Positions 55,438 through 63,178 of a stretch of DNA of 64,000 nucleotides are shown here, piece after piece. Below the pieces are notes generated by a model. That model was not told where the DNA came from and did not search any database. It was given only the letters and a program-made list of their open reading frames with translations. Source of the stretch: the human T2T-CHM13v2.0 reference genome, Homo sapiens; assembly GCA_009914755.4 (NCBI GenBank), contig CP086569.2, positions 10,464,001-10,528,000 on the forward strand. The letters are read 5' to 3'. Made by a program: the position numbers and the translations under genes. Each line of letters starts with the position of its first letter. The stretch's first letter is position 1.

Positions 55438-56295
55438 GCCAATCATTAGCCCCTGAGGGTGCCCCCAGGCTCCCTGGGGTGCACGGCTGGGGGTTCCATG
55501 GCAGGGCCCACTGGGGACCTCCATCCCCCCAAGTGCAGACCCGGCGACATCCGCCCTCCTCTCCTGCCATGCCTGCCCCTTCCCCCCCACCCCCACCACA
55601 GGTCCTGTGTGGTCACGGATTGGGTGGTGTGGGGAAGAGGGGCTCCTGGCTGTGAGGAAGAGAGAGAGAGTGGAGCCATCACCTGCAAAAACAGAGAGGG
55701 AAGAGAGCCCGCTGGGGTCGAGTTCCTGTGGCCACCACCACGGTCCTGTTTCTTCCCTCGGGGGCTCCCTCCTGCCTCACACAGCTCGTAGTGCAGGGTT
55801 TGTTGGTGCTGGTGGGGTGGATGGTCCTGTGCCATCATTGTCGTTGCGCATCATCGGTGGTGGGGGCTTGTTGGGCGGGGAGGATGGCAAGTAGGAAGGG
55901 TCCACTGGGGAGAGGGTGGGGGAGCGTGTCCCAGTTGCCGCAATTTGCTGCCCACCCCTGGTGGCAGCCCGGCGACTGGCCGACCGCCGCTCCAGTGCCC
56001 CTCCTCCCCATCACCCCTCCCAGGCACCGTCCTCTTCTCCTGCCTGCCCCCCACCTGCCTGGCTTGTGACGCGGTGTGTCCGGGGCCAGAAGCCCACCAA
56101 GCGGCCCATCTGGCAGCGTTCATGGCCATGGTCCCGGGGTTCGTTTGCCCCTGGTGATGGTCCCCTGGATGCTACAGTGTCATATGCCATCAGGTGCCCA
56201 CCTCCTGCTCTTGGCTGCGCGGTGCCTGGCGCCCCATCCAGAGCTTTGATGTCAGGGCGGAATGGTGCTGCCACATCCTTGGACCCGTCCCCCAC
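55438..56295 (+). other. ITS2-like spacer, truncated; no 28S follows
   Basis: GC-rich sequence continues for about 0.86 kb (canonical ITS2 is about 1.15 kb), then switches abruptly to AT-rich unique sequence at about 56300. Confidence 0.5.
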
Positions 56296-56899
56296 CTACA
56301 TTTAGTACATAGGCAATCCCATGTAACTTATCAAAGCTAGCAAGTCCCTAGACTTGGTGCAGCCACTGTAGGGGTGGCCTCCCAGTAGCATCATTAACAT
56401 CAATTGTAATTGGTAGGCAATCACTTAGTTTCACATTTCATTACCTGAGTTATACAAATGTGTAAAAAAATACAGTTTTAATAAAAGGGAGTAAAGGATA
56501 ATAAGAGTAATATTCACAATCTCTAGTTGGAAGATGTAGTGTTTTCTCACAAATGATGCATTCCTGGAGCAAGGTCATTTTGTGTTTGGTTTGTTAAATA
56601 TCTATTTCCTTTTTGACAAACCACTGGAAAATCCCAGCTTCACAAGAACTCTCCATGAGAACGATCACAGAAAAGAACACCCATAACACAAAATCAAAAC
56701 AAGGGTGCTCCGGGATTCACATTAAAGACTCATTACCAAGTTTTCTTAGAAGAGATAAAGTACACAAAGTTACTTTTGTGTGACGGAAAACAGAGAAAAA
56801 GAGTAAATAGAAAAATAAATGTTATGCAACATCAGTGAAAACCAAGCTGTGGAAAAAAATGAATGGAATTGTTTTGTTTGCTATTGATTTCCTATCCTG

Positions 56900-61100: not shown

Positions 61101-63178
61101 GAGGCTTATGGTGAAAAAGGAAATATATTCACATAAAAACTAGACAGAAGCTTTCTGAGAAACTTCTTTGTGATGTATGAATTCATCTCACAGTGTTGAA
61201 TCTTTCATTGGATTGAGCAGTTTGGAAACAATCCTTTTGTAGAATCTGCAAAGGTATATTTCTGAGCCCATTGAGGTCTATGGTGAAATATGAAATATCT
61301 TCCCATAAAAACTAGACTGAAGGTTTCTAAGAAACTTCTTTGTGATCTGTGCTTCCATCTCACAGAGTTGAACCTCTCTTTTGATTGAGCAGTTTGGAAA
61401 TACTCTTTTTGTAGAATCTGCAAATGGATATTTGGAGCACTTTGAGGCCCATGGTAAAAAAGGAAATATCTTCACATAAAAACTAAATGGAAGCTTTCTG
61501 AGAAACTTTTTTGTGATGTGTGCATTCATCTCACAGAGTTGAACAGTTCTTTTGATTGAGCAGTTAGAAATAGACTTTTCATAGAATCCACAAATGTATA
61601 TTTGAAGCAGTTTTAGGTCTATGGTGAAAAAGGAAACTTTTCACATAAAAACTAGACAGAAGCATTCTGAGAAACTTCTTTGTGATGAGAGCTTTCATCT
61701 CACAGAGTTTAACCTTTCTTTTCATGGAGCAGTTTGGAAACAGTCTTTTTGTAGAATCTGCAAAGGGAATATTTGTGAGCCGTTTGAGGCATGTGGTGAA
61801 AAAGTAAATGCCTTCACATAAAAACTAGATAGATGTATTTTGAGAAACCTCTTGGACGTTTGAATTCATCTCACAGGGTTGAACCTTTCTTTTCATTGAA
61901 CAGTTTGGAAACAGTCTTTTTGTACAATCTGCAAAGGGATATTTCTGAGCCATTTGAGGCTTATGGTGAAAAAGAAATATCTTCCCACAAAAACTAGACA
62001 GAAGCATTCTTAGAAACTACTTTGTGATGTGTCCATTCATCTCACGGAGTTGAAACTTTCTTTTGATTGAGCAGTTTGGTAACAGCATTTTTGTAGCATC
62101 TGCAAAGGTATATTTGTGAGCCCTTTATGGCCTAGGGTGAAATAGGAAATATCTTCATATAAAAACTAAACAGTAGCTTTCTGAGAAACTTCTCTGTGAT
62201 TTATGCTTTCATCTCACAGAGTTGAACATTTCCTTCGATTAAGCAGGTTGGAAGCAGTGTTTTGTACAATCTGCAAATGGATATTTGGAGCCCTTTGAGG
62301 CCTATGGTGAAAAAGGAAATATCTTCACATAAAAATTAGATGGAAGCATTCTGAGAAACTTTTTGGTGACGTTTGTATTCATCTCACACAGTCGAACATT
62401 TCTTTGATTGAAGATTTGGAAACAGTCTTTTTGTAAAATCTACAAAGGGATAATTGTGAAGCCTTTGAGGCCTATGGTGAAGTAGGAAATATCTTCATAT
62501 AAAAACTACACAGAAACATTCTGAGAAACTTTTTTGTGATGGGTGATATAGGAAATATCTTCACATAAAAGCTAGACAGACGCTTTCTGAGAAACTTCTT
62601 TTAAATGAGTGCTTTCATCTCAAGGAGTTGAGCACTTCTTTTGACTGAGCAGTTTGGAAAAACTCTTTTTGCAGAATCTGCAAATGGATAATTGAAGCGC
62701 TTTGAGGCCTATGGTGAAAAAGGAAATATCTTCACATAAAAACTAAACAGAAGCTTTCTGATAAACTACTTTGTAATGCATGCATTCATCTCACAGTGTT
62801 GAAACTTTTGATTGAGCAGTTTGTAAATGTCTTTTTGTAGAATCTGCAAATGGATATCTGTAGTGCTTTGAGGCCAAGAGGAAATATTTTCACAGAAAAC
62901 CAGACAGAAGCATTCTGAGAAACATCCTTATGATGTGTTCTTTCTTCTCACAGAGTAGAAGCTTTCTTTTGATTCAGCAGATTGCAAACAGTCTTTTTGT
63001 ACTATCTGCAGAGGGATATATCAGTGTTATCAGACCTATGGAGATAAAGAAATATCTTCACACAAAAACTAGACAGAAGCATTCTGAAAAACTTCTTCAT
63101 AATGTGTGCATTCATCGCATGTATTTGAACCTTTCTTTTGATTAAGCTGTTTGGAAACAGTCCTTTTGTAGAACCTCA
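58148..63178. repeat. Alpha satellite, monomeric: about 29 monomers of ~171 bp
   Basis: GGCCTATGGTGAAAAAGGAAATATCTTCACATAAAAACTAGACAGAAGC… recurs every ~171 bp. Neighbouring monomers differ substantially. I saw no CENP-B box (TTCGTTGGAAACGGGA). Confidence 0.95.

What the first reader, a model, noticed from the sequence alone, without database searches (positions are those of the whole stretch)
56295..63178. Junction from rDNA-like sequence to monomeric alpha satellite (no CENP-B boxes) with an irregular monomer
Only about 1.85 kb of AT-rich sequence, including an old L1M 3' end, separates the truncated ITS2 from an alpha-satellite array of at least 5 kb. Adjacent monomers are highly divergent from each other. 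None carries a CENP-B box. One monomer contains a ~57-bp partial-monomer duplication at about 62541-62597, giving a ~228-bp unit. Divergent monomeric alpha satellite without a higher-order repeat is typical of pericentromeric flanks rather than the active centromere core.
Basis: seen in the sequence. Interest (0 to 1): 0.5.

Follow-up and report, generated by a model that had tools for sequence, protein, structure and literature searches.

The report
Old monomeric alpha satellite beside rDNA pseudogene
This is a 5-kb leftover block of old, decayed primate centromere repeat (alpha satellite) lying 1.85 kb from a dead copy of the ribosomal RNA genes; both are real, but this kind of patchwork near centromeres is already well described.

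Summary
A + strand alpha-satellite array occupies 58146-63176 (5,031 bp, 31 units, both end units truncated). It is the only alpha satellite in the window. It lies 1,850 bp (35% GC) downstream of a decayed rDNA fragment (mir-663-like 5'ETS, 18S, 5.8S, ITS2-like sequence ending about 56295, no 28S).

Monomers average 80.8% pairwise identity (maximum 89.4%). No offset approaches higher-order-repeat identity. Every monomer carries the A-type (pJalpha-type) box and none has a CENP-B box.

Against published class consensuses, 29 of 32 units (27 of the 28 near-full ones) match M1 best (PERCON "SF4+"). The array consensus is 172 bp, and only 8-10 of 28 near-full monomers carry the position-23 deletion that defines SF4 proper. 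By the published length criterion it therefore looks SF6 (V1)-like or older.

Corrections:
- The odd piece is 66 bp (62517-62582; unit about 236 bp), not 57 bp.
- It is no more similar to its neighbour than any two monomers are, so it is not a recent duplication.
- Three further irregular units exist.
- The array has two sub-domains and a faint 5-monomer periodicity.

The L1M call could not be tested, and the window could not be placed on a chromosome. Verdict: an ordinary pericentromeric relic of a known kind.

The parts
51509..51598 (+). mir-663-like hairpin inside 5'ETS-like sequence of the decayed rDNA unit
   Evidence: Rfam RF00957, 89 bits against a gathering score of 75. From memory, it differs from both human miR-663a and miR-663b precursors, mostly at CpG sites.
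52384..54231 (+). 18S rRNA pseudogene
   Evidence: Rfam SSU_rRNA_eukarya, full model 1-1831, 1278 bits. CpG o/e 0.53.
55283..55434 (+). 5.8S rRNA pseudogene
   Evidence: Rfam RF00002, 121.5 bits. It is 146/156 identical to human 5.8S as recalled from memory, with one 1-bp deletion. By my reading of that alignment, most substitutions are CpG transitions.
55438..56295 (+). ITS2-like GC-rich sequence, truncated; no 28S follows
   Evidence: GC 0.659 with an abrupt fall at about 56300. No LSU rRNA hit anywhere in the window. The resemblance to human ITS2 rests on memory only.
56296..58145 (.). 1,850-bp AT-rich non-satellite spacer
   Evidence: GC 0.353, CpG o/e 0.21. No alpha hit. ORFs have no Pfam match.
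57060..57470 (+). putative ancient L1M-type 3' end (approximate bounds)
   Evidence: Reading of the sequence against my memory of L1M 3'-end consensus. Not tested: no repeat library is available here.
58146..63176 (+). monomeric A-type alpha-satellite array: 31 units in the phase (28 near-full, 107-bp 5' partial, 66-bp fragment, 97-bp 3' partial)
58146..60033 (+). left sub-domain: all 172-bp-type monomers, including a distinct subtype (units at 58174, 58517, 59349, 59692; 3' end GGAAACTCTGTTCTTGTAG)
   Evidence: 0 of 11 monomers carry the position-23 deletion. The subtype is the first multi-member cluster to separate in UPGMA (after the singleton u31), with weak bootstrap support, 74/300. Alignment.
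60034..63176 (+). right sub-domain: irregular mix of 172-bp-type and 171-bp-type (CAAATGG plus deletion) monomers
   Evidence: 10 of 17 carry the deletion by alignment column, 8 of them with the full CAAATGG signature. Fisher p=0.0016 against the left part (split chosen post hoc). Deleted monomers form no clade (2/300).
58769..58917 (+). 149-bp monomer with a 22-bp internal deletion at 58799
   Evidence: (period 149).
60196..60205 (+). 10-bp tandem duplication (TTTTCTATAA/TTTTCTAGAA) making a 182-bp monomer
   Evidence: TRF 60197-60217, period 10..
62517..62582 (+). 66-bp monomer fragment (consensus positions 1-29 joined to about 139-171)
   Evidence: (periods 66 and 236).
62754..62910 (+). 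157-bp monomer with most of the A box deleted (about 62876)
63177..63590 (.). 414 bp of unidentified non-satellite sequence abutting the truncated last monomer
   Evidence: No Pfam or PDB match for its ORFs. GC 0.425.
63592..63657 (.). (AT)n/(AC)n simple repeat
   Evidence: TRF.
63671..64000 (+). 5'-truncated primate L1; open ORF2 frame running off the window (L1 sequence starts about 63664)
   Evidence: Matches human L1 ORF2p residues 813-922 (PDB 8sxt, 8uw3), E 7e-62.

Best explanation
The feature is a small, non-functional relic of old, purely A-type, monomeric alpha satellite. It belongs to PERCON class M1/'SF4+'. By the published monomer-length criterion it is SF6 (V1)-like, with an older-looking left third. 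It sits in a pericentromere-type mosaic next to a decayed, DNA-level copy of an rDNA unit that is cut off in ITS2.

Proposed history (inferred):
1. Such arrays once belonged to a homogenised ancestral primate centromere layer.
2. After newer families took over, homogenisation stopped and monomers drifted to about 19% pairwise divergence.
3. Out-of-register exchange, slippage and deletion trimmed the block to 5 kb. They also left truncated end monomers, a 66-bp fragment, a 22-bp and a roughly 12-bp deletion and a 10-bp duplication.
4. The rDNA unit was displaced to the same region and decayed, largely by CpG deamination.
5. The two were brought within 1.85 kb of each other by pericentromeric rearrangement or duplication.

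No present sequence-specific function is expected. The block lacks CENP-B boxes and the homogeneity typical of kinetochore-forming arrays.
For: Shown:
- Tandem 171/172-bp alpha monomers, + strand only, 58146-63176.
- Mean identity 80.8%, max 89.4%, flat across offsets 1-15. No long repeat above 90%.
- All boxes are A-type and there is no CENP-B box.
- M1 is the best match for 29 of 32 units (27 of the 28 near-full ones) at 78-92% identity. The array consensus is 95.9% identical to M1 and 94.2% to R2. The consensus sequences come from PMC4496801 supplement.
- The array consensus is 172 bp, with the extra T that M1 lacks.
- The deletion is present in 0/11 left and 8-10/17 right monomers, and deleted monomers form no clade. 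This matches the published description of SF6/V1: 172 bp, a fraction deleted, irregular, no separate branch. It does not match SF4, where all monomers are 171 bp.
- rDNA parts lie in canonical order with depressed CpG.

From the literature:
- SF4+ is divergent non-HOR alpha of dead centromeres (PMC2729386).
- Degraded rDNA units including IGS cluster next to centromeres on HSA20, HSA2 and HSA21 (PMC5381670).
Against: - The chromosome and the distance to a live centromere are unknown, so 'pericentromeric' is inferred from content only.
- The deletion frequency in the right half (47-59%) is higher than the published 'one-fourth' for V1.
- The left/right split was chosen after looking at the data.
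- The order and mechanism of the juxtaposition steps are inference.
Confidence: 0.85

Rival explanations
1. The block is a decayed ancient higher-order repeat (about a 5-mer) rather than an array that was always monomeric.
For: - Mean identity at offset 5 is 0.826 against a shuffled-order null of 0.811+-0.004 (p=0.004 after correcting for 8 offsets).
- Units at 58517-58837 and 59349-59691 are 90% identical at offset 5.
- 60413-60868 and 61098-61553 are 88.6% identical at offset 4.
Against: - The excess is only 1.5 percentage points.
- The best blocks span 2-3 monomers and use two different offsets (4 and 5). That fits sporadic local multi-monomer duplications better than one regular period.
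- Within either sub-domain alone, no offset survives correction.
Confidence: 0.12
2. The array is SF4 proper (M1), the layer lying next-but-one to live HOR cores, rather than SF6 or older.
For: M1 is the best-matching published consensus for 29 of 32 units. The array consensus is 95.9% identical to M1.
Against: Published SF4 domains consist only of 171-bp monomers carrying the position-23 deletion. Here only 8-10 of 28 do, and none of the 11 in the left part. The array consensus also differs from M1 at about 7 positions.
Confidence: 0.1
3. The juxtaposition of rDNA-like sequence and alpha satellite is an assembly join, not a real genomic junction.
For: Both sequence classes are assembly-prone repeats. 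Exact 27-29-mers across the two junctions were not found in two public collections. Those collections are essentially non-human, so this is uninformative.
Against: The rDNA is heavily decayed (5.8S 93.6% identical; CpG o/e 0.37-0.66), so it is not collapsed active rDNA. 1.85 kb of unique-looking sequence separates the two. Both array ends are clean truncations within monomers. Such juxtapositions are documented.
Confidence: 0.03
4. The array is part of, or the immediate edge of, a functional centromere core.
For: None beyond its being alpha satellite.
Against: No HOR, 81% identity, no CENP-B box, only 5 kb, and bounded by non-satellite DNA on both sides.
Confidence: 0.01

Closest known systems
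SF6 (V1, 'yellow-striped') monomeric alpha satellite layer of Shepelev et al. 2009 (PMC2729386)
   Same: Pure A-type, monomeric and divergent, with a 172-bp unit. A fraction of monomers carries the position-23 deletion. Those monomers are scattered irregularly and do not form their own branch.
   Different: The V1 consensus was not available, so sequence membership is untested. The deletion frequency is 0% in the left part and 47-59% in the right part, against about 25% reported. The block is only 5 kb.
SF4 (M1) monomeric alpha satellite / PERCON 'SF4+' group (PMC4496801)
   Same: M1 is the nearest of the 12 published class consensuses for 29 of 32 units (27 of the 28 near-full ones). A-type box. 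No HOR.
   Different: SF4 proper is uniformly 171 bp, whereas most monomers here are the 172-bp type. The array consensus differs from M1 at about 7 positions.
Centromere-proximal degraded rDNA units (Robicheau et al. 2017, PMC5381670)
   Same: Decayed 45S parts in canonical order. Upstream there are IGS-like long TC-rich tracts. The fragment lies next to centromere-type satellite.
   Different: This copy is cut in ITS2 and lacks 28S within the window. Its chromosome is unknown. Whether it is one of the five units they describe was not testable.
Higher-order-repeat alpha satellite of live centromeres (SF1-3)
   Same: Same 171-bp repeat family.
   Different: No multi-monomer period at >=95%, no B-type monomers and no CENP-B boxes.

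Membership tests
Alpha satellite (primate centromeric 171-bp repeat) | Head-to-tail tandem units of about 171 bp | tested here: met
   TRF period 171/172, 21.9 copies, score 4554. 28 units of 149-182 bp; the most frequent length is 172 bp.
Alpha satellite (primate centromeric 171-bp repeat) | Sequence similarity to the alpha consensus | tested here: met
   nhmmer E down to 4e-34 per monomer. 78-92% identity to the published M1 consensus.
Higher-order-repeat (live-centromere type) alpha satellite | Multi-monomer period with copies >=95% identical | tested here: not met
   Maximum monomer pair 89.4%. Offset means 0.804-0.820 for offsets 1-15. Best shifted blocks 88.6-90%.
Higher-order-repeat (live-centromere type) alpha satellite | B-type monomers with CENP-B box (TTCGNNNNANNCGGG core) | tested here: not met
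   No hit at <=1 mismatch in the array. In-register core match is at most 6/9, and all units are nearer the A box.
SF5 (R1/R2) | Irregular mix of B-type R1 and A-type R2, or pure R2, with R-class consensus as best match | tested here: not met
   No B-type unit. R2 is best for only one near-full unit (u02, 58174-58344), marginally. M1 scores at or above R2 in the other 27 near-full units.
SF4 proper (M1) | M1 is the nearest class consensus | tested here: met
   29 of 32 units, including 27 of the 28 near-full ones.
SF4 proper (M1) | All monomers 171 bp, carrying the deletion at position 23 of the 172-mer (PMC2729386 Text S1) | tested here: not met
   Only 8-10 of 28 carry it, and 0 of 11 in 58174-60033. 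Criterion quoted.
SF6 (V1) | 172-bp A-type monomeric array; a minority of monomers deleted at position 23, irregularly placed, no separate clade | tested here: met
   Array consensus 172 bp. 29-36% of monomers deleted overall. No clade of deleted monomers (2/300 bootstraps).
SF6 (V1) | Monomers cluster ('mix well') with reference V1 monomers on a tree | not testable with these tools
   No V1 or H1-H4 consensus or reference monomers could be retrieved.
Degraded centromere-proximal rDNA unit | rDNA parts in canonical order, pseudogenic | tested here: met
   mir-663 (5'ETS), then 18S, then 5.8S in order on the + strand. CpG o/e 0.37-0.78. 5.8S is 93.6% identical to a remembered human sequence.
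Degraded centromere-proximal rDNA unit | IGS present as well as the 45S part (DNA-level origin) | tested here: inconclusive
   Two 1.1-kb TC-rich tracts at 38154-39290 and 41117-42276 resemble IGS pyrimidine tracts (the resemblance is from memory). No reference IGS was available to align.
L1M 3' end in the spacer | Alignment to a Dfam/Repbase L1M 3'-end consensus | not testable with these tools
   No repeat library is available. Spacer ORFs have no Pfam hit. The call rests on reading and on memory.

The most novel reading that the evidence does not exclude
The decayed rDNA unit and the stratified old alpha block are not a chance mosaic. Instead they are a physical fossil of an ancestral acrocentric-type arrangement, a former nucleolar organiser lying directly beside a former centromere. 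The older-to-younger polarity of the alpha block (left to right) would then point towards where that centromere lay.
Probability: 0.08. Interest if true: 0.4.

Novelty: already known. Interest (0 to 1): 0.15.

Why it matters
It matters little on its own. Divergent A-type monomeric alpha satellite flanking centromeres, and degraded rDNA units near centromeres, are both described and are fully annotated in complete human assemblies.

The block is a tidy small example of two things. The first is a within-array shift in the frequency of the 171/172-bp length character. The second is the small rearrangements that erode dead satellite. Its only wider value would come from dating the rDNA/satellite juxtaposition in ape genomes, to ask whether the site is a former organiser-plus-centromere.

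Tried and rejected
- Placing the locus. Exact junction 27-29-mers were searched in metagenome contigs and genome contigs and gave no hits. These collections are not human, so nothing follows from that.
- Finer SF6-SF18 classification. I looked for V1/H-type consensus sequences in the Shepelev 2009 supplements and by full-text sequence search. None is held.
- Comparison with an African green monkey monomer. I used a sequence recalled from memory, and my recalled copy was 173 rather than 172 bp, so I use it only as a lead. The array consensus was 81% identical to it against 77% for M1.
- Identifying 63177-63590 and the spacer ORFs by Pfam and PDB. Nothing was found; the weak ZNRF1 and DUF4417 hits are chance-level.
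- Looking for a CDC27 pseudogene between the two TC tracts as an IGS marker. Six-frame translation showed only Alu-like sequence and I dropped it.
- 'Recent 57-66-bp duplication' for the odd monomer. Rejected: the two 66-bp copies are 80% identical against a background of 83+-5% for the same segment between any two monomers.
- mir-663 as a chromosome marker. The hairpin matches neither human miR-663a nor miR-663b as I remember them, so it gives no assignment.
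Full report
**What is there**

Reading 55800-64000 shows GC-rich sequence up to about 56295. After it come AT-rich non-repetitive sequence, a long run of about 171-bp repeats, about 0.4 kb of other sequence, a simple repeat and L1-like sequence.

Tandem Repeats Finder reports period 172 over 58145-58801 and period 171 over 58799-62545 (21.9 copies, 80% matches, score 4554). It also reports local periods of 149, 10, 66 and 236.

nhmmer with a general alpha-satellite consensus (recalled from memory and used only as a seed) gives 32 consecutive + strand hits from 58146 to 63219. 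Per-monomer E-values go down to 4e-34. There are no hits anywhere else in the 64 kb on either strand.

A chained alignment against a tandem consensus bounds the array at 58146-63176 (5,031 bp). It yields 31 units:
- a 107-bp 5' partial;
- 28 near-full units of 149-182 bp, the most frequent length being 172 bp;
- a 66-bp fragment;
- a 97-bp 3' partial.

The array is therefore real and far beyond chance. The array is bounded on both sides inside the window.

**The rDNA side**

Rfam at gathering thresholds finds three hits, all on the + strand and in canonical rDNA order:
- a full-length eukaryotic 18S at 52384-54231 (1278 bits);
- 5.8S at 55283-55434 (121.5 bits);
- a mir-663 hairpin at 51509-51598.

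There is no LSU rRNA anywhere in the window.

The 5.8S is 146/156 identical, with one 1-bp deletion, to human 5.8S as I remember it. By my reading of that alignment, most of the substitutions are CpG transitions. CpG observed/expected is 0.37-0.78 across the rDNA parts. This is a decayed pseudogene, not active rDNA.

GC falls from 0.64-0.70 to 0.22-0.38 at about 56300. The resemblance of 55438-56295 to human ITS2 rests on my memory only.

Upstream, two 1.1-kb TC-rich tracts (38154-39290 and 41117-42276) resemble the pyrimidine tracts of the human intergenic spacer. That resemblance is also from memory.

**The spacer**

The spacer 56296-58145 is 1,850 bp at 35.3% GC. Its ORFs have no Pfam match.

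About 57060-57470 reads like the 3' end of an ancient L1M-type element.

**Higher-order repeat test**

From a MAFFT alignment of the monomers, the 28 near-full units have mean pairwise identity 80.8% (sd 3.3, range 69.8-89.4%). Means by monomer offset 1-15 lie between 0.804 and 0.820.

An independent seed-and-extend repeat search finds no copy above 90% over 146-300 nt, and no inverted repeats.

With monomer order shuffled as a null, offset 5 is slightly but significantly raised: 0.826 against 0.811+-0.004, p=0.004 after correction for the offsets tried. Two shifted blocks stand out:
- 58517-58837 against 59349-59691: 90% identity, offset 5;
- 60413-60868 against 61098-61553: 88.6% identity, offset 4.

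I read these as old local duplications of 2-3 monomers. They are nowhere near the >=95% that defines a higher-order repeat.

**CENP-B and A/B boxes**

The core TTCGNNNNANNCGGG has no match at <=1 mismatch inside the array. The three matches elsewhere in the window are at chance level.

In register (positions 35-51 of the published monomer phase), every unit is 1-4 mismatches from the A box and 6-9 from the B box. No unit matches more than 6 of 9 CENP-B core positions. One unit (62754-62910) has lost most of the box to a deletion.

The local box form is CTATGGTGAAAAAGGAA.

**Classification**

The supplement of Shepelev et al. 2015 (PMC4496801) prints aligned consensus monomers for the 12 PERCON classes.

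M1 is the best match for 29 of 32 units, including 27 of the 28 near-full ones, at 78-92% identity. One near-full unit marginally favours R2.

That paper defines the 'SF4+' group as SF4 proper pooled with all older, more distal dead families. It describes the group as divergent and non-HOR.

The array's own consensus is 172 bp and differs from M1 at about 7 positions. One difference is an extra T in GATATTTGTGAGC where M1 has GATATTTGGAGC. It is 95.9% identical to M1 and 94.2% to R2.

Shepelev et al. 2009 (PMC2729386, Text S1) give a length criterion:
- SF4/M1 domains are entirely 171 bp, through a deletion at position 23 of the 172-mer.
- SF6/V1 is 172 bp, with about a quarter of monomers deleted. 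These are scattered irregularly and do not form a branch.
- Ancient layers show the deletion in about 3% of monomers.

Here the deletion, usually together with CAAATGG instead of CAAAGGG, is absent from all 11 full monomers in 58174-60033. It is present in 8 clear (10 by column) of 17 in 60034-63171. Fisher p=0.0016, with the boundary chosen post hoc. Deleted monomers do not cluster (2/300 bootstraps).

So the array fails the SF4-proper criterion and fits the published behaviour of SF6/V1, with an older-looking left part. Membership by sequence could not be tested, because no V1 or H-type consensus could be retrieved.

**Sub-structure**

Monomers are more alike within the left and right parts than between them: 0.818 and 0.817 against 0.804, label-permutation p=0.0008.

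The left part also contains a distinct subtype: the units starting 58174, 58517, 59349 and 59692, plus the 29-bp first partial. They share a 3' end GGAAACTCTGTTCTTGTAG and several other characters. It is the first multi-member cluster to separate in UPGMA, after the singleton u31, though with weak bootstrap support (74/300).

Across the block the composition therefore changes from left to right in three steps:
1. subtype plus 172-bp type;
2. 172-bp type only;
3. a mixture of 172-bp and 171-bp types.

This is what a fragment spanning a gradient or boundary between satellite layers would look like. That reading is inference.

**The irregular monomer**

After a normal unit (62347-62516), consensus positions 1-29 (62517-62545) join directly to about 139-171 (62546-62582). 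A normal unit follows.

The extra piece is 66 bp and the compound unit about 236 bp, matching TRF periods 66 and 236.

Viewed as a duplication, the two 66-bp copies (62480-62545 and 62546-62611) are 80% identical. That is below the 83+-5% seen for the same segment between any two monomers; 77% of background pairs do as well or better.

So there is no sign of a recent local duplication. The structure is equally a monomer with a roughly 105-bp internal deletion, or an old out-of-register exchange.

- a 22-bp deletion at 58799, giving a 149-bp unit;
- a 10-bp tandem duplication at 60196-60205, giving a 182-bp unit;
- an A-box deletion near 62876, giving a 157-bp unit.

**The right flank**

The last monomer stops at consensus position 97 (63176). 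The next 414 bp are unidentified: their ORFs have no Pfam or PDB match.

After a simple repeat (63592-63657), an open frame at 63671-64000 matches human L1 ORF2p residues 813-922 with E 7e-62. This is a 5'-truncated primate L1 running off the window.

**Comparison with what is known**

Monomeric, A-type, divergent alpha satellite in layers flanking live centromeres is described in detail (PMC2729386; PMC4496801).

Degraded rDNA units that include spacer, lying close to centromeres, are also described. Examples are four on HSA20, one near the vestigial HSA2 centromere, and HSA21. The authors explicitly discuss a link to centromeric exchange (PMC5381670).

The present junction is another instance of both.

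**What could not be done**

- I could not place the window on a chromosome. The junction k-mer scans of the available, non-human collections were empty.
- The mir-663 hairpin matches neither human paralogue as I remember them.

**Verdict**

Observation confirmed, with corrected details. Interpretation supported. The feature is of an already known kind and of low interest.

The most novel reading not excluded is that the rDNA unit and the layered alpha block together mark a former organiser-plus-centromere. I give it about 8%.

Noticed in passing
window 51509-51598 (+): Rfam mir-663 hit (89 bits) inside 5'ETS-like sequence. The hairpin differs from both human miR-663a and miR-663b precursors as I remember them, mostly by CpG decay. 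It looks like a third, decayed rDNA-derived copy.
   Followed up: partly
window 38154-39290 and 41117-42276: Two TC/TCTG-rich low-complexity tracts of about 1.1 kb, separated by 1.8 kb that contains Alu-like sequence. They are reminiscent of the pyrimidine tracts of the human rDNA intergenic spacer. If so, the rDNA-like unit extends far upstream (DNA-level copy including spacer).
   Followed up: partly
window 63177-63590: 414 bp of unidentified sequence between the truncated last alpha monomer and a simple repeat. A 60-aa minus-strand ORF (63142-63324) has no Pfam or PDB relative. Both array junctions read AA|CAGT, a 4-bp coincidence of uncertain meaning.
   Followed up: partly
window 63671-64000 (+): 5'-truncated primate L1 with an open ORF2 frame (residues 813-922 of human ORF2p, about 90% identical), preceded by an (AT)n/(AC)n repeat and running off the window end.
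   Followed up: yes
window 58146-63176: Faint 5-monomer periodicity in monomer identity (0.826 against a null of 0.811, corrected p=0.004). There are also two old shifted duplications: 58517-58837 with 59349-59691 at 90%, and 60413-60868 with 61098-61553 at 88.6%.
   Followed up: yes
window 24000-28000 and 30001-31000: Further GC-rich stretches (0.56-0.60), with tandem repeats of 22, 48 and 89 bp at 24727-27268 and a (CTCC)n tract at 30299-30398. Not examined; they may be more rDNA spacer-derived sequence.
   Followed up: no
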